NCBI GenBank assembly: GCA_964016885.1
Contig: CAXHJY010000507.1
Coordinates: 1 to 22,256 of the forward strand
DNA: 22,256 nt
Direction: 5' to 3'
DNA from: Eledone cirrhosa
Lineage: Eukaryota
Part shown: piece after piece, positions 1-21,306 of the stretch
Layout of the letters: every line of letters starts with the position of its first letter
How positions within the stretch are numbered: position 1 is the first letter of the stretch
Notes under the pieces: model-generated
Database searches by the model: none
The model's input: only the letters and a program-made list of their open reading frames with translations
What the model was told of the DNA's origin: nothing
Translations under genes and position numbers: made by a program

Positions 1-1360
1 TTGACCCCCAAACTATGGAATAATTTATACGATACATATAGTATCATTTGATCCACAAACTATGGAATAATTTATACGATATATATAGTATCATTTGACC
101 CCGAAACTATGGAATAATTTATACGATACATATAGTATCATTTGACCACCAAACTATGGAATAATTTATACGATATATATAGTATCATTTGACCCTCAAA
201 CTATGGAATAATTTATACGATATATATAGTATCATTTGACCCCCAAACTATGGAATAATTTATACGATACATATAGTATCATTTGATCCACAAACTATGG
301 AATAATTTATACGATATATATAGTATCATTTGACCCCCAAACTATGGAATAATTTATACGATACATATAGTATCATTTGACCCACAAACTATGAAATAAT
401 TTATACGATATATATAGTATCATTTGACCCCCAAACTATGGAATAATTTATACGATACATATAGTATCATTTGATCCACAAACTATGGAATAATTTATAC
501 GATATATATAGTATCATTTGACCCCAAACTATGGAATAATTTATACGATACATATAGTATCATTTGACCCCCAAACTATGGAATAATTTATACGATATAT
601 ATAGTATCATTTGACCCCCAAACTATGGAATAATTTATACGATATAAAGAAATAATTTATATAATATATGCTATCATTTGACCCAAAGATATATACGATA
701 CATATGCTATTATATGACCCTGAAACAATGGTATAATTTATACGATATATATGCCATAATTTGACCCCCAAACTATGGAATAACTTATACGATATATACA
801 CCATCATACCCACCAAACTATGGAATCATTTATACGATATATGCCATCATTTGACTCAGACGATGAAACAGTTTATACGATATACATATATATCATCATT
901 TGACCCCCAAACTATGGAATAGTTTATACTATATATATATCATAATTTGACCCCCAAACTATCGAATAATTTATATGATATATATGCTATCATTTGACCC
1001 ACCCCCAAACTATGGAAGAATATATACGATATATACCATCATATAACCCCCAAACTATGGAAGATGTATACGATACATCACATGACCCCCCAAACTATGG
1101 AAGAATGTATACGATACATCATATGACCCCCAAACTATGGAAGAATTTATACGATATATATCATCATATGACCCCCAAACTATGGAAGAATGTATACGAT
1201 ACATCATATGACCCCCAAACTATGGAACAATTTATACAATAACGATACATACGCCATCATTTGACCCTGAAACTATGGAATAATTTATACGAATATCGTA
1301 TAAATTTGACCCCCAAACTATGGAAGAATGTATACAATGTATACTATCATATGACCCAAG
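1..1360. repeat. 47-bp minisatellite (TTGACCCCCAAACTATGGAATAATTTATACGATA[C/T]ATATAGTATCAT), about 29 unit-lengths, running off the window start
   Basis: Unit recurs every 46-47 bp. Near-identical to ~645, then increasingly diverged to ~1360. Confidence 0.97.
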
Positions 1361-6746: not shown

Positions 6747-6751
<5 letters not shown>

Positions 6752-6878
6752 ATTATGAAGAGAGAAGAAACATTTAGATATAATTAGTAATAAGATGTAT
6801 CATACCTAAACTGCTTTAGGTATGATACATCTTATTACTAATTATATCTAAATGTTTCTTCTCTCTTCATAATGTACT
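6747..6878. repeat. Perfect palindrome with 64-bp arms and a 4-nt loop (CTGC)
   Basis: 6747-6810 is the reverse complement of 6815-6878. Confidence 0.95.
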
Positions 6879-7238: not shown

Positions 7239-7293
7239 ACTGCCTGAAGAGGTCACAGCCAAAGATGGCTGTCACTGAAATATATATAGCAGT
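7239..7293 (+). ncRNA. Minimal type I hammerhead ribozyme motif (Penelope-like element type)
   Basis: ACTGC [stem I] CTGAAGA G-GTCACAGCCA AAGA TGGCTGTCAC-T [stem II] GAAA TATATA [palindromic stem III] TA GCAGT [stem I']. AATAAA follows at 7294-7299, then (TA)n. Confidence 0.8.
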
Positions 7294-9101: not shown

Positions 9102-9245
9102 TATTTCTGGTAATATTATAATAATATGACCCTCCCCAAGTATAACTATAACTATATATATATATATAATTGTGTGTGTGTGTATGTGTGTGTGTGTATT
9201 GTTATATTTGGGGAGAGTCATGTTGTTATAATATTACCAGAAATA
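9102..9245. repeat. Imperfect inverted repeat with 49-bp arms (44/49) around a (TA)n(TG)n spacer
   Basis: 9102-9150 versus the reverse complement of 9197-9245; 5 mismatches by manual comparison. Confidence 0.9.
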
Positions 9246-10344: not shown

Positions 10345-11070
10345 TTTCTGTGGCGAGGACGCCAGTCCATCGCAGGGTTAAAGTCTGTCTGAAGTCTGGC
10401 GGCTCGGCTGGACAACGCTTATCCTAGGGTCCGTGACGTGAAGCGACTGAGAGTACAAGATACACCCCTCCATCGCAGGGTTAAAGTCTGTCTGAAGTCT
10501 GGCGGCTCGGCTGGACAACGCTTATCCTAGGGTCCGTGACGTGAAGCGACTGAGAGTACAAGATACACCCCTGGATAGGACGACAGTCCATCGCAGGGTT
10601 AAAGTCTGTCTGAAGTCTGGCGGCTCATCTGACCAACGCTTATTCTAGGGTCCGTGACGTGAAACGACGGAGAGTACAAGATACACCCCTGGATAGGACG
10701 ACAGTCCATCGCAGGGTTAAAGTCTGTCTGAAGTCTGGCGGCTCATCTGGCCAACGCTTATCCTAGGGTCCGTGACGTGAAGCGACTGAGAGTACAGATA
10801 CACCCCTGGATAGGACGACAGTCCATCGCAGGGTTAAAGTCTGTCTGAAGTCTGGCGGCTCATCTGACCAACGCTTATCCTAGGGTCCGCTTATCCTAGC
10901 GACTGAGAGTACAAGATACACCCCTGGATAGGACGCCAATCCATCGCAGGGTTAAACCCCCAGCTACTGTTGCTGGTACACATTTTCATCTAAGTATACT
11001 GGAGCAACGTGAAATGAAGTGTCTTTGCCCAACAACACAACACACAACCCAATCCAGGAATTGAACCATG
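10345..11070 (-). mobile_element. SINE with a V-domain-like core, its 3' part tandemly amplified
   Basis: The minus strand has the B-box-like GGTTCAATTCC (~11057-11067), then TTGGGCAAAGACACTT, then CCCTGCGATGGA(C/T)TG(G/T)CGTCCTATCCAGGGGTGTA, which resembles the V-SINE domain as recalled. Confidence 0.7.
10360..10956. repeat. 118-bp tandem repeat x5 derived from the SINE 3' region
   Basis: CCATCGCAGGGTTAAA at 10367, 10470, 10588, 10706, 10823 and 10941 (spacings 103, 118, 118, 117, 118). Confidence 0.95.
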
Positions 11071-12732: not shown

Positions 12733-12806
12733 AAGGATGTGTGGTAAGGAACCAGATGGACCATAACGCACCATAGTACTCAATACTTAGGGTAGTAGAG
12801 TGGGTA

Positions 12807-12941
12807 ATAGGAAAAGGTTTAAACCCGACGGCAGAGCTTAAGCCGTTTCGACGGCTATTTCTGTCCAGAAATAGCCGAACAGTCCAGAAATAACCGTCGA
12901 AACGGTTTGAGCTCTGCCGTCGGGGTTAAACTTTTTCCTAT
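12807..12941. repeat. Imperfect palindrome with 57-bp arms (52/57) and a small internal duplication
   Basis: 12807-12863 versus the reverse complement of 12885-12941. GTCCAGAAATA(G/A)CCG is duplicated at 12863-12877 and 12882-12896. Confidence 0.92.
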
Positions 12942-13529
12942 ATATATATATATATGTAGGAGGTGAGTTTTATTGTAGCACAATAAAGCAATGCAAATAT
13001 CGGATAAGTAGCACTCTACATGCGCATAATAAAATACTTGGAACTCTTTTAACCATCTTTTGATCTTATATTATATTATATATATATATATATATAGTAA
13101 TAAGAATATTTATATTTATATATGTTTAATACAATTATAAATATGGAGGGTAGTTCTCAATACTAGATGGTATGACAAAAGGCTCAATGCAAATTTTCTA
13201 GTGTTTTACAGAGCCGAGATACAAAGTGTTAAAACACTTTGTGTATATATAATTAATTTTGCTTTGATTCTGTTTTAATGTGATTCTGATTTTGAATTTA
13301 AATTGCCATTCAGAAATAATATAATATATGTCACCCCACTGTAGATCAATATATACATATGTATCTGTATGTCTCTTGCGTTGGAAAGGAGGTCATGTAA
13401 GTGTACAAACATTGAAAAATGCTCCGAAGATCCCAAGCCTCGGTTTGGATGAAACAATTGTAAGCGAATAAATGCTTTGAACATAGTTTTGATTCCTGTG
13501 AATTCTCTCTCTCTATATAACGAAGGCAG

Positions 13530-13602
13530 TGGACCATAACGCACCAGAGTACTCAATACTTAGGGTAGTAGAGTGGCTAATAGGAAAATAACATTTTCCT
13601 AT
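13530..13602 (+). repeat. Second copy of 12757-12815 with a collapsed palindrome
   Basis: 59 bp with 2 mismatches. It ends ATAGGAAAA TAACA TTTTCCTAT, followed by (TA)n. Confidence 0.9.
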
Positions 13603-13649
<47 letters not shown>

Positions 13650-13731
13650 AAAGTTTTATTTAAAATTGTTGGGTTACAACAAGTAAATATTTTATAACCG
13701 ATATAAAGCACTCGACAAGTTTTTGGAGTAG

Positions 13732-14108
13732 ATATACGATATTAAACAAATGGAAACTATATTTATAAAACCATATTTATTTCATTATACATATTTCAGG
13801 GATACCATATTAAAAATATGGCATGCCTTCGTCAGATAAAATACAATATATAAACTGTTTTATAAATAATTTTGACGTACCATAAATATAAGCGACCATT
13901 AAGGTAGGAAGCTGGCTTGGTAGTACCAAGCCAGCTTCCTACCTTAATGGTCGCTTATATTTATGGTACGTCAAAATTATTTATAAAACAGTTTATATAT
14001 TGTATTTTATCTGACGAAGGCATGCCATATTTTTAATATGGTATCCCTGAAATATGTATAATGAAATAAATATGGTTTTATAAATATAGTTTCCATTTGT
14101 TTAATATC

Positions 14109-14114
<6 letters not shown>
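13732..14114. repeat. Palindrome with 191-bp arms and a single unpaired central G (13923)
   Basis: The centre is GCTGGCTTGGTA-G-TACCAAGCCAGC. Arm-end coordinates are symmetric and I saw no mismatch by eye. Confidence 0.95.
14005..14062 (+). ncRNA. Hammerhead-like motif in the palindrome arm (mirror copy on the - strand at 13784-13841)
   Basis: CTGACGA AGG-C-ATGCCATATT TTT AATATGGTAT-C-CCT GAAA TATG TA. Stem II is strong and stem I is weak and AT-only. AATAAA follows at 14065-14070, then (TA)n. Confidence 0.65.
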
Positions 14115-14180
<66 letters not shown>

Positions 14181-15112: not shown

Positions 15113-16725
15113 CAGGGGCGTGCAACAGGCGGCCCGTGGGCCACAATCCGGCCCGCCAGACCAGTCAGAGTGGCCCGCGATGACCGTTTTTAATTTTTAC
15201 CTTGTAGGTTTATTTAGAATTTTTTTCATAACCGTGATACAATTTTCTGTTAGTTGACCCATACTAAAGGGCTTCACTGATAGGGTTATGTGTGTTATAA
15301 TTTCCCAGTTCCATGTTATGGAAAGAAGTTGGGAATATTTGGAATAATGCTTAATAAATATTAATGGCCCTAAGAGTTGTTCTGATAGGGTTATGTGTGT
15401 TATAATTTCCCAGTTCCATGTTATGGAAAGAAGTTGTGGTGAATCTTTGGAATAGTGCTTAATAAATATTACTGGCCCTAATAGTTGTTCTGATAGGGTT
15501 GTGTGTGTTATAATTTCCCAGTTCCATGTTATGGAAAGAAGTTGTGGTGAATCTTTGGAATAGTGCTTAATAAATATTAATGGCCCTAATAGTTGTTCTG
15601 ATAGGGTTGTGTGTGTTATAATTTCCCAGTTCCATGTTATGGAAAGAAGTTGTGGTGAATCTTTGGAATAGTGCTTAATAAATATTAATGGCCCTAATAG
15701 TTTGTTCTGATAGGGTTGTGTGTGTTATAATTTCCCAGTTCCATGTTATGGAAAGAAGTTGTGGTGAATCTTTGGTATAGTACTTAATAAATATTAATGG
15801 CCCCAATAGTTGTTCTGATAGGGTTGTGTGTGTTATAATTTCCCAGTTCCATGTTATGGAAAGAAGTTGTGGTGAATCTTTGGAATAGTACTTAATAAAT
15901 ATTACTGGCCCTAATAGTTGTTCTGATAGGGTTATGTGTGTTATAATTTCCCAGTTCCATGTTATGGAAAGAAGTTGTGGTGAATCTTTGGAATAGTGCT
16001 TAATAAATATTACTGGCCCTAATAGTTGTTCTGATAGGGTTACGTGTGTTATAATTTCCCAGTTCCATGTTATGGAAAGAAGTTGTGGTGAACCTTTGGA
16101 ATAGTACTTAATAAATATTAATGGCCCTAATAGTTGTTCTGATAGGGTTGTGTGTGTTATAATTTCCCAGTTCCATGTTATGGAAAGAAGTTGTGGTGAA
16201 TCTTTGGAATAGTACTTAATAAATATTACTGGCCCTAATAGTTGTTCTGATAGGGTTGTGTGTGTTATACTTTCCCAGTTCCATGTTATGGAAAGAAGTT
16301 GTGGTGTATCTTTGGAATAGTGCTTAATAAATATTAATGGCCCTAATAGTTGTTCTGATAGGGTTGTGTGTGTTATAATTTCCCAGTTCCATGTTATGGA
16401 AAGAAGTTGTGGTGAATCTTTGGAATAGTGCTTAATAAATATTACTGGCCCTAATAGTTGTTCTGATAGGGTTGTGTGTGTTATAATTTCCCAGTTCCAT
16501 GTTATGGAAAGAAGTTGTGGTGAATCTTTGGAATAGTGCTTAATAAATATTACTGGCCCTAATAGTTGTTCTGATAGGGTTGTGTGTGTTATAATTTCCC
16601 AGTTCCATGTTATGGAAAGAAGTTGTGGTGAATCTTTGGAATAGTACTTAATAAATATTAATGGCCCTAATAGTTGTTCCAATGTTCAAAAGTGGCCCAC
16701 CAATGGAATATGTTGCACACCCCTG
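15113..16725. mobile_element. hAT-superfamily (Charlie/Buster-like) non-autonomous element enclosing a satellite
   Basis: TIRs CAGGGGCGTGCAACA / TGTTGCACACCCCTG (14/15). Perfect 8-bp TSD GTATAAAC at 15105-15112 and 16726-16733. Subterminal GGCCCG motifs. Confidence 0.92.
15277..16679. repeat. 108-bp tandem repeat x~13
   Basis: CTGATAGGGTT at 15277, 15382, 15490, 15598 and onwards; 36-aa periodicity in the spurious ORF. Confidence 0.97.
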
Positions 16726-17697: not shown

Positions 17698-17775
17698 GTT
17701 TGTTGTGAGAGACATATCGAAATGTTTACATGAATATGAAATTATGCGGGTGACTGATAAGGGAATGAAATATCT

Positions 17776-20700
17776 TCTTAGATGAGGTAGCCAAGCTTCT
17801 CGGAATAATGTGACTATGTCGTCTGCGCCATTTGTCTTTGTGGCGTTCAAATGAAACTGTCTGCCTTTCTTAGATGAAGTAGCCAAGCTTCTCGGAATAA
17901 TGTGGCTATGTCGTCTGAGCCAAGTTGTCTTTGTGGCGTTCAAATGAAACTGTCTGCCTTTCTTAGATGAGGTAGCCAAGCTTCTCGGAATAATGTGGCT
18001 ATGTCGTCTGAGCCAAGTTGTCTTTGTGGCGTTGATATGAAACTGTTTGCCTTTCTTAGATGAAGTAGCCAAGCTTCTCGGAATAATGTGGCTATGTCGT
18101 CTGAGCCAAGTTGTCTTTGTGGCGTTCAAATGAAACTGTCTGCCTTTCTTAGATGAGGTAGCCAAGATTCTCGGAATAATGTGGCTATGTCGTCTGAGCC
18201 AAGTTGTCTTTGTGGCGTTCAAATGAAACTGTCTGCCTTCCTTAGATGAGGTAGCCAAGCTTCTCGGAATAATGTGGCTATGTCGTCTGAGCCTAGTTGT
18301 CTTTGTGGCGTTCAAGTGAAACTGTCTGCCTTTCTTAGATGAGGTAGCCAAGCTTCTCGGAATAATGTGACTATGTCGTCTGAGCCAAGTTGTCTTTGTG
18401 GCGTTCAAATGAAACTGTCTGCCTTTCTTAGATGAGGTAGCCAAGCTTCTCGGAATAATGTGGCTATGTCGTCTGAGCCACTTGTCTTTGTGGCGTTCAA
18501 ATGAAACTGTCTGCCTTTCTTAGATGAGGTAACCAAGCTTCTCGGAATAATGTGGCTATGTCGTCTGAGCCACTTGTCTTTGTGGCGTTCAAATGAAACT
18601 GTCTGCCTTTCTTAGATGAAGTAGCCAAGCTTCTCGGAATAATGTGGCTATGTCGTCTGAGCCAAGTTGTCTTTGTGGCGTTCAAATGAAACTGTCTGCC
18701 TTTCTTAGATGAGGTAGCCAAGCTTCTCGGAATAATGTGACTATATCGTCTGAGCCACTTGTCTTTGTGGCGTTGATATGAAACTGTCTGCCTTTCTTAG
18801 ATGAAGTAGCCAAGATTCTCGGAATAATGTGGGTATGTCGTCTGAGCCAAGTTGTCTTTGTAGCGTTCAAATGAGCCTGTCTGCCTTTCTTAGATGAGGT
18901 AGCCAAGCTTCTCGGAATAATGTGGCTATGTCGTCTGAGCCAAGTTGTCTTTGTGGCGTTCAAATGAGCCTGTCTGCCTTTCTTAGATGAGGTAGCCAAG
19001 CTTCTCGGAATAATGTGGCTATGTCGTCTGAGCCAAGTTGTCTTTGTGGCGTTCAAATGAGCCTGTCTGCCTTTCTTAGATGAGGTAGCCAAGCTTCTCG
19101 TAATAATGTGGCTATGTCGTCTGAGCCACTTGTCTTTGTGGCGTTCAAATGAAACTGTCTGCCTTTCTTAGATGAAGTAGCCAAGCTTCTCGGAATAATG
19201 TGAGGGGGATGTCGTCTGAGCCAAGTTGTCTTTGTGGCGTTCAAATGAAACTGTCTGCCTTTCTTAGATGAAGTAGCCAAGCTTCTCGGAATAATGTGGC
19301 TATGTCGTCTGAGCCAAGTTGTCTTTGTGGCGTTCAAATGAAACTGTCTGCCTTTCTTAGATGAGGTAGCCAAGCTTCTCGGAATAATGTGGCTATGTCG
19401 TCTGAGCCAAGTTGTCTTTGTGGCGTTCAAATGAAACTGTCTGCCTTTCTTAGATGAGGTAGCCAAGATTCTCGGAATAATGTGGCTATGTCGTCTGAGC
19501 CAAGTTGACTTTGTGGCGTTCAAATTAAACTGTCTGCCTTTCTTAGATGAGGTAGCCAAGATTCTCGGAATAATGTGGCTATGTCGTCTGAGCCAAGTTG
19601 TCTTTGTGGCGTTCAAATGAAACTGTCTGCCTTTCTTAGATGAGGTAGCCAAGCTTCTCGGAATAATGTGGCTATGTCGTCTGAGCCAAGTTGTCTTTGT
19701 GGCGTTCAAATGAAACTGTCTGCCTTTCTTAGATGAGGTAGCCAAGATTCTCGGAATAATGTGGCTATGTCGTCTGAGCCAAGTTGTCTTTGTGGCGTTC
19801 AAATGAAACTGTCTACCTTTCTTAGATGAGGTAGCCAAGATTCTCGGAATAATGTGACTATGTCGTCTGAGCCAAGTTGTCTTTGTGGCGTTCAAATGAA
19901 ACTGTCTGCCTTTCTTAGATGAGGTAGCCAAGATTCTCGGAATAATGTGGCTATGTCGTCTGAGCCAAGTTGTCTTTGTGGCGTTCAAATGAAACTGTCT
20001 GCCTTTCTTAGATGAGGTAGCCAAGTTTCTCGGAATAATGTGGCTATGTCGTCTGAGCCAAGTTGTCTTTGTGGCGTTCAAATTAAACTGTCTGCCTTTC
20101 TTAGATGAGGTAGCCAAGATTCTCGGAATAATGTGACTATGTCGTCTGAGCCACTTGTCTTTGTGGCGTTCAAATGAAACTGTCTGCCTTTCTTAGATGA
20201 GGTAGCCAAGCTTCTCGGAATAATGTGACTATGTCGTCTGAGCCAAGTTGTCTTTGTGGCGTTCAAATGAAACTGTCTGCCTTTCTTAGATGAAGTAGCC
20301 AAGATTCTCGGAATAATGTGAGGGGGATGTCGTCTGAGCCATTTGTCTTTGTGGCGTTCAAATGAAACTGTCTGCCTTTCTTAGATGAGGTAGCCAAGCT
20401 TCTCGGAATAATGTGACTATGTCGTCTGAGCCACTTGTCTTTGTGGCGTTCAAATGAAACTGTCTGCCTTTCTTAGATGAGGTAGCCAAGCTTCTCGGAA
20501 TAATGTGACTATGTCGTCTGAGCCAAGTTGTCTTTGTGGCGTTCAAATTAAACTGTCTGCCTTTCTTAGATGAGGTAGCCAAGATTCTCGGAATAATGTG
20601 GCTATGTCGTCTGAGCCAAGTTGTCTTTGTGGCGTTCAAATGAAACTGTCTGCCTTTCTTAGATGAGGTAGCCAAGCTTCTCGGAATAATGTGACTATGT

Positions 20701-21306
20701 CGTCTGAGCCAAGTTGACTTTGTGGCGTTCAAATGAGCCTGTCTGCCTTTCTTAGATGAGGTAGCCAAGCTTCTCGGAATAATGTGGCTATGTCGTCTGA
20801 GCCAAGTTGTCTTTGTGGCGTTCAAATGAAACTGTCTGCCTTTCTTAGATGAGGTAGCCAAGCTTCTCGGAATAATGTGGCTATGTCGTCTGAGCCACTT
20901 GTCTTTGTGGCGTTCAAATGAAACTGTCTGCCTTTCTTAGATGAGGTAGCCAAGATTCTCGGAATAATGTGGCTATGTCGTCTGAGCCAAGTTGTCTTTG
21001 TGGCGTTCAAATGAAACTGTCTGCCTTTCTTAGATGAAGTAGCCAAGCTTCTCGGAATAATGTGACTATGTCGTCTGAGCCACTTGTCTTTGTGGCGTTC
21101 AAATGAAACTGTCTGCCTTTCTTAGATGAGGTAGCCAAGCTTCTCGGAATAATGAGACTATGTCGTCTGAGCCACTTGTCTTTGTGGCGTTCAAATGAAA
21201 CTGTCTGCCTTTCTTAGATGAGGTAGCCAAGATTCTCGGAATAATGTGACTATGTCGTCTGAGCCAAGTTGTCTTTGTGGCGTTCAAATGAAACTGTCTG
21301 TCTTTC
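17776..21306. repeat. 93-bp (92-bp variant) satellite x~38 with a HindIII site in most units
   Basis: Unit TCTTAGATGAGGTAGCCAAGCTTCTCGGAATAATGTGGCTATGTCGTCTGAGCCAAGTTGTCTTTGTGGCGTTCAAATGAAACTGTCTGCCTT; 31-aa periodicity in the spurious ORFs. Confidence 0.98.

What the first reader, a model, noticed from the sequence alone, without database searches (positions are those of the whole stretch)
13732..14114. 383-bp near-loopless palindrome carrying mirror-image hammerheads
Seen: 191-bp arms, a 1-nt centre, and an HHR-like motif plus AATAAA pointing outward on each strand; the right end runs into (TA)n. Established: spacerless palindromes this long are unstable, and PLEs can produce inverted terminal duplications. 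Inference: a recent head-to-head PLE-end duplication. If transcribed it would form a ~190-bp dsRNA, a potential ADAR or siRNA substrate.
Basis: partly seen in the sequence, partly recalled or inferred. Interest (0 to 1): 0.7.

Follow-up and report, generated by a model that had tools for sequence, protein, structure and literature searches.

The report
Twin-copied Penelope retrotransposon leader stub
This DNA palindrome is a short back-to-back insertion of the front end of a common Penelope-like jumping gene, a layout already known for this class; its halves are equal likely because the element's RNA was copied twice, from two fixed start points, to the same front end.

Summary
The palindrome is real: 191 of 191 pairs, 1-nt centre. 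The insertion is larger than flagged (13647-14114): the left arm carries 85 further bases, a one-sided 'tail', and both ends sit in (TA)n. The arm is the pLTR of a Penelope-like family (RT + C-terminal GIY-YIG, Hydra-clade motifs) with 2,594 untailed and 1,269 tailed ends by exact match in this 3.0-Gb genome. Head-to-head copies with one tail are the published PLE layout (PMC8557442, PMC3846280). Of 43 head-to-head pairs, 42 have exactly one tail. 32% of copies that reach one base (A of TCACT, Inr-like) stop there, against 6% over the next two bases; this likely is the RNA 5' end and explains equal arms. The hammerhead fits the PLE minimal type; activity untested. AATAAA is chance-level. No read spans the centre (inconclusive); dsRNA and editing could not be tested. 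The scan already reported this layout and reading on other DNA of this genome. Ordinary: new member of a known kind.

The parts
13600..13646 (.). (TA)n microsatellite, left part of the likely target site
   Evidence: tailed copies elsewhere also end in (AT)n
13647..13731 (-). 85-bp one-sided 'tail' of the PLE; in tandem copies it runs on into the 5' UTR, with the ORF's ATG about 50 bases further
   Evidence: L027/L039, L040, L106; 1,269 exact tailed ends
13732..13922 (-). left arm: inverted pLTR copy (tailed arm)
13778..13843 (-). predicted minimal type I hammerhead, left arm (mirror of 14003-14068)
13922..13924 (.). junction: left arm reaches the family's 5' hotspot base (A of TCACT), right arm starts 2 bases inside it; one base fits either arm
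13924..14114 (+). right arm: pLTR copy ending at the untailed end
   Evidence: 2,594 exact untailed ends
14003..14068 (+). predicted minimal type I hammerhead: stem I, CUGACGA 14011-14017, long stem II 14018-14048, GAAA 14049-14052, self-complementary helix III 14052-14059, predicted cut after 14060
14110..14147 (.). (TA)n microsatellite, right part of the likely target site, then (AG)n to 14191

Best explanation
It is one insertion of a Penelope-like retrotransposon of the Hydra type into a (TA)n run, made of two head-to-head copies of the element's hammerhead-bearing leader (pLTR), one with and one without an 85-base tail, likely laid down by two reverse transcriptions that both ran to the RNA's 5' end. 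Shown: family identity, autonomous RT-endonuclease copies, (TA)n flanks, the one-tail rule, a sharp 5' stop point, and that the two arms of a locus resemble each other more than other copies. Inferred: the element's GIY-YIG nicks both strands of the AT-rich target; each freed 3' end primes RT at one of two internal start sites (both at a TATAT stretch, 85 bases apart, giving the tailed and untailed ends); both cDNAs run off at the transcription start; their 3' ends are joined (1-nt microhomology or an RT template jump), which leaves no loop. The stub has no ORF and lacks the sequence upstream of the stop point, so it is likely inert unless read through; read-through RNA would fold into a 190-bp hairpin that would mask its own hammerhead.
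For: Arm matches 49 places at up to 100% among 40 scored of 891 candidates. Copy L040 holds a 750-aa ORF with YRDD, DKT, RWR and a C-terminal NIIY..YVG endonuclease motif; ESM Atlas neighbours score 0.96-0.99 and carry HTH_animal, GIY-YIG, RVT_1 on part of their members. 43 distinct head-to-head pairs from 133 loci: 40 tail+short, 2 tail+untailed AT-rich end, 1 tail+tail, 0 short+short. 184 copies hold the motif starting at the hotspot A, 125 keep the 2 bases before it, 117 the next 2; 9 of 30 sampled arms stop exactly there. A second perfect palindrome with both arms ending at that base and no loop lies on C1 (L060/L112). Arms within a locus differ by 2.3 of 140 bases, between loci by 6.0 (32 of the 43 pairs; sum 74, lowest of 20,000 permutations 129). 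Either the tailed or the untailed arm can be the longer. In vitro, the anole PLE nicks and extends both strands and starts RT at two internal sites that define the tail (PMC11167929, parts 1-2 of 4 read).
Against: The stop point is called a transcription start only from the TCACT motif; the TATA-like stretch at about -26 is missing in one of the two upstream variants, and no RNA data were seen. Several inverted junctions lie elsewhere (3851, 3859, 3879, 3887, 3899, 3916 in L040-based numbering) and some have short palindromic overlaps, as self-priming would give. Like arms within a locus are also expected from fold-back copying or gene conversion. PMC3846280 prefers self-priming on an antisense template (Discussion read). 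In the anole PLE priming is not homology-guided, whereas both ends here sit on TATAT. Pfam and PDB sequence searches did not name the ORF. No tree was built for clade placement. No read or contig spans this locus's centre.
Confidence: 0.6

Rival explanations
1. Same PLE insertion, but the second arm arises by fold-back: one cDNA (or an antisense RNA) primes on itself and copies back to the other internal TATAT site.
For: Arms within a locus share variants; some junctions carry short palindromic overlaps or extra inverted filler (L041, L043, L068, L075, L088, L104); proposed in PMC3846280.
Against: Loops of 0-1 nt with both arms reaching the same template base (window; L060) cannot be the direct product of a hairpin turn, which needs about 3 nt (established); either end type can be the longer arm.
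Confidence: 0.3
2. A non-autonomous palindromic mini-element (MITE- or retrozyme-like) that moves as a unit.
For: Short palindromic copies are common (24 of 43 pairs span 400 bases or less between the anchors).
Against: The exact centre occurs once in the genome; the 4 loci with a near-closed centre at this spot all differ; junctions differ from locus to locus; arms grade continuously into ORF-bearing copies.
Confidence: 0.05
3. Assembly or library artefact (fold-back chimera) on a 22-kb unplaced contig.
For: The window is a whole small contig (C534); no record spans the centre in 4 runs.
Against: A fold-back read mirrors its flank; here mirroring stops exactly at the family's untailed end and the flanks differ. 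The same one-tail layout recurs on contigs of 45-440 Mb. The short-read contigs are shallow at this locus (depth 3-4 on the right flank).
Confidence: 0.04

Closest known systems
Hydra clade of C-terminal EN+ Penelope-like elements (Craig et al. 2021, PMC8557442; passages and section 11 read)
   Same: Single ORF, RT + C-terminal GIY-YIG, DKT, CxCX5C linker, CxxC and CxH in the EN, no CCHH, hammerhead in the pLTR, (TA)n targets.
   Different: RWR in place of RWK; body about 4.1 kb against 'generally <3 kb'; not placed on a tree here.
Typical EN+ PLE insertion unit: inverted 5'-truncated pLTR at the 5' end with a tail on one side (PMC8557442 Fig. 2 legend; Adineta Pen families, PMC3846280, passages and Discussion read)
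   Same: Head-to-head inverted copies, palindrome at the junction, one-sided tail, TCACT Inr-like motif.
   Different: Tail 85 bp against 30-40 bp; here both copies are cut down to the leader, so the whole insertion is a palindrome.
Poseidon PLE of Anolis (PAc) in vitro (PMC11167929)
   Same: Two internal RT start sites bounding the tail; AT-rich target; both strands nicked and extended; hammerhead upstream of the start sites.
   Different: PAc starts lie inside the ORF and are not homologous to the target; here both ends lie before the ORF on TATAT stretches. No in vitro data for this family.
Minimal PLE hammerheads (Cervera and de la Pena 2014, PMC4209133; passages read)
   Same: Type I, long helix II, extra base after A9, tiny self-complementary helix III suited to dimers.
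   Different: Closing pair of stem II is mostly G-U (or A-U in the other register), not G-C; the two ribozymes here are on opposite strands, so they cannot form the tandem dimer in one RNA.
L1 twin priming (recalled, no call)
   Same: Two primers from the two target ends, inverted 5' segment.
   Different: L1 inverted parts do not overlap in sequence; here both primers start near the same end, so the copies overlap and form a long palindrome.

Membership tests
EN+ Penelope-like element | Single ORF with PLE RT and GIY-YIG endonuclease in autonomous copies | tested here: met
   750-aa ORF in L040; Atlas neighbours with GIY-YIG/HTH_animal/RVT_1. Pfam scan itself gave no such family.
EN+ Penelope-like element | pLTRs from partial tandem copies | tested here: met
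   Tail runs into the ORF leader in L027/L039, L040, L106
EN+ Penelope-like element | Inverted 5'-truncated copy with tail at one end | tested here: met
   42 of 43 pairs have one tail; tail 85 bp, longer than published 30-40 bp
EN+ Penelope-like element | RT groups with PLE RTs in a phylogeny | not tested
   No reference PLE proteins were fetched; no tree built
Hydra clade | DKG changed to DKT; RWK motif | tested here: met
   DKT at 126; RWR (R for K) at 45
Hydra clade | CxCX5C linker | tested here: met
   Present in 6 of 7 distinct natural copies; L040 has Y for the first C (the motif search on L040 alone was blank)
Hydra clade | No CCHH in the EN; CxxC and CxH near the conserved E and N | tested here: met
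   Only CxxC is CDLC at 707, CRH at 734, none between NIIY 627 and YVG 643
Hydra clade | Insertion into (TA)n | tested here: met
Hydra clade | Length generally under 3 kb | tested here: not met
   About 4.1 kb in L040; the paper says 'generally', so not a strict criterion
Hammerhead ribozyme (minimal type I) | Core CUGANGA / GAAA / UH with three helices | tested here: met
Hammerhead ribozyme (minimal type I) | G10.1-C11.1 pair | tested here: inconclusive
   Base before GAAA is U in 104, C in 25, A in 8 of 137: G-U/G-C if the first A is the extra base, A-U otherwise
Hammerhead ribozyme (minimal type I) | Self-cleavage | not testable with these tools
   Needs an assay; Rfam models gave no match

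The most novel reading that the evidence does not exclude
Inverted PLE insertions are made by two target-primed reverse transcriptions on RNA of one source, started at two TATAT sites that pair with the (TA)n target, and closed when RT runs off the RNA 5' end and jumps to the other cDNA. Loopless palindromes then mark the element's transcription start, and thousands of such hairpins could feed the host's small-RNA response to the family.
Probability: 0.4. Interest if true: 0.5.

Novelty: new member of a known kind. Interest (0 to 1): 0.22.

Why it matters
As a locus it is ordinary: one of thousands of stubs of a young PLE family. Its use is as a footprint of an unsettled mechanism. How PLEs make inverted copies and tails is still open in the papers read (PMC8557442, PMC11167929, PMC3846280); the one-tail rule and the sharp 5' stop give a simple prediction (RNA 5' end at one base; two primers) that CAGE and an in vitro assay can test. 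Searches for this two-primer, run-off model in print found nothing beyond those papers, in a library that lacks most subscription journals.

Tried and rejected
Rfam: no hammerhead match; miRNA-family hits are low-complexity. Pfam and PDB sequence searches of the ORF: nothing useful. ORF listing of the window: only repeat-derived frames. Sequencing runs: no RNA holder listed, so expression, editing and small RNAs were not examined. Laying reads on the centre at 100% likeness: no contig or read shown to span it in 4 runs; unique flank depth is 3-4, contigs collapse repeats, the other runs are reduced-representation libraries: inconclusive. Search for an allelic or empty copy of the locus with both flanks: only the window itself matched in full, among 40 scored of 4,673 and of 1,041 candidates; no target-site duplication can be read in (TA)n. 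AATAAA as a poly(A) signal: rejected as chance-level. First guess of Nematis/Neptune clade: dropped for Hydra after section 11 of PMC8557442. Splice acceptor at the stop point: no AG there. A first pair count (58 rows) and hammerhead count (185) were not de-duplicated; one search replaces them. Arms too short to hold the 20-nt anchor (tail-only partners such as L006, L054, L058, L111) are not in the 43 pairs; 11 of 43 were left out of the arm-identity test for short overlap. The retrozyme preprint (10.64898/2026.07.22.740005) was seen as abstract only. No supplements were read; those of PMC8557442 hold Hydra sequences that bear on clade placement.

Full report
Observation. The inverted repeat is exact: 191 of 191 pairs around G13923, first mismatch at pair 192. 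A hammerhead-type core, CTGACGA...GAAA with a long hairpin between, lies in each arm on opposite strands. AATAAA is there but arises in 24% of shuffled arms. Both sides, not only the right, end in (TA)n: 13600-13646 and 14110-14147. The window is a whole 22-kb contig of a 3.0-Gb genome rich in microsatellites and satellites.

The arm is a repeat. Searching the own genome with one arm gave 49 matches, the best 41 at 99-100% over 190-191 bases, from 40 scored of 891 candidates. The fetched loci show two kinds of outer end: the arm runs straight into (AT)n, or it continues for 85 bases and then runs into (AT)n. The window has one of each, so the insertion is 13647-14114. Exact-match counts are 2,594 untailed and 1,269 tailed ends, controls 0; these count ends, not insertions, and miss diverged copies. 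Raw reads of other animals also show the untailed end followed by (AT)n (5,891 and 6,792 reads).

The family is a Penelope-like element. Walking inward from the arm leads to a 4.1-kb body; copy L040 has an open frame of 750 residues. Pfam and PDB sequence searches did not name it, but the ESM Atlas placed it at 0.96-0.99 among clusters with HTH_animal, GIY-YIG and RVT_1 on part of their members. Its motifs fit the Hydra clade as defined in PMC8557442 section 11: RWR, DKT, no CCHH, CxxC and CxH late in the endonuclease, CxCX5C in 6 of 7 distinct copies, (TA)n targets. It is longer than the '<3 kb' given there, and no tree was built. In tandem copies the tail continues into the 5' UTR and the ORF, so the arm plus tail is the element's leader, present again at the 3' end as the pLTR.

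The layout is the published one. PMC8557442 describes an inverted 5'-truncated copy adjacent at the 5' end and a 30-40-bp tail usually at one end; PMC3846280 reports head-to-head repeats with palindromes at the junction. Here, of 43 distinct head-to-head pairs from 133 loci, 40 are tail+short, 2 tail+untailed AT-rich end, 1 tail+tail, none short+short. The loci were chosen by likeness to this arm, by one end type or by the hotspot motif, so the partner type was free but the sample is not random. Either arm type may be the longer, and loops run from 0 to about 4 kb.

Why this one has no loop. 5' truncation is not random. 184 places hold a motif starting at the A of TCACT; 125 keep the two bases before it; 117 keep two more: 59 of 184 lost in the first step, 8 of 125 in the second. 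Of the first 30 such arms, 9 stop exactly at that A and 21 continue. The window's left arm reaches that base and the right arm starts two bases inside it. Another locus has both arms ending there with no loop (L060), and 4 loci including the window have a near-closed centre at this spot, each with a different junction. TCACT is the motif PMC3846280 calls Inr-like in a rotifer pLTR. That this base is the RNA's 5' end is inferred; the TATA-like stretch upstream is not kept in all variants.

Mechanism. PMC11167929 showed in vitro that a PLE protein nicks and extends both strands of AT-rich DNA and starts at two internal sites whose spacing is the tail. Carrying this over (inference): two target ends prime at the two sites, both cDNAs run to the 5' end, and are joined. 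Arms of one locus are more alike than arms of different loci (2.3 against 6.0 differences in 140 bases; 32 of 43 pairs; observed sum 74, lowest of 20,000 permutations 129), so both come from one source, which fits this model and also fold-back copying or conversion. Fold-back is the main rival: some junctions have short palindromic overlaps and the rotifer paper favours self-priming, but it does not directly give 0-1-nt loops at a shared template end. I put 0.6 on two primers with run-off, 0.3 on fold-back; the PLE identity itself is about 0.95.

Hammerhead. It has the features of PLE minimal ribozymes in PMC4209133: long stem II, an extra base after A9, a small self-complementary helix III (self-duplex -4.2 kcal/mol). 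In 137 distinct copies the free position N7 varies in 46, other core bases in at most 3, and one stem I pair shows G-C for A-U in 8 (the search limited core changes and copies share descent). Rfam did not match it. The mirror ribozymes follow from the inversion: one RNA would carry one sense copy, paired into a 190-bp hairpin (-304.5 kcal/mol), so it would not be expected to cut.

Artefact check. No record spans the centre, but the data were too shallow or sparse to test it. The asymmetry at the family's own two ends and the recurrence on large contigs argue against a fold-back chimera.

Earlier scan notes report the same layout and the same start-site reading for other palindromes in this genome; my start-site idea was noted before, the Hydra lead and one paper came from them and were checked. 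They are not independent support.

Verdict. A young, ORF-less stub of a Hydra-type PLE in its usual inverted form; new member of a known kind; interest 0.22.

Noticed in passing
window 13253-13520: End of a second abundant repeat family (4,673 candidates, 40 scored, 92-98%), often in inverted pairs with tailed and untailed ends, carrying a variant hammerhead core (CCGAAGA for CUGANGA) and a palindromic helix III; likely another PLE pLTR.
   Followed up: partly
window 7244-7280: Another hammerhead-like core (CTGAAGA, hairpin, GAAA, TATATATA) on the + strand next to (TA)n tracts.
   Followed up: no
window 6747-6878: Perfect 64-bp-arm palindrome with a 4-nt loop directly after a (TA)n run; possibly a stub of another PLE family.
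   Followed up: no
window 12758-12941 and 13531-13600: Two copies of a very abundant repeat end; the first continues into an imperfect 57-bp-arm palindrome, both close on a short inverted end and (TA)n.
   Followed up: no
window 9102-9245: Imperfect inverted repeat (53-bp arms) around a TA/TG microsatellite, MITE-like.
   Followed up: no
window 1-1357, 1477-2052, 10366-10956, 15277-16679, 17775-21306: Tandem arrays of 47, 166, 103-118, 108 and 93 bp; the 93-bp array has 38 copies at 95% and is itself part of a larger repeated block.
   Followed up: no
L075, L100, L104, L109, L110 (junctions): A subfamily whose inverted junctions carry extra short inverted filler not in reference copy L040, some nested palindromes; may be a variant leader with its own stop point.
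   Followed up: no
L066/L069: Inverted pairs of a diverged subfamily with longer stems (204 and over 400 bp) and internal sequence unlike L040.
   Followed up: no
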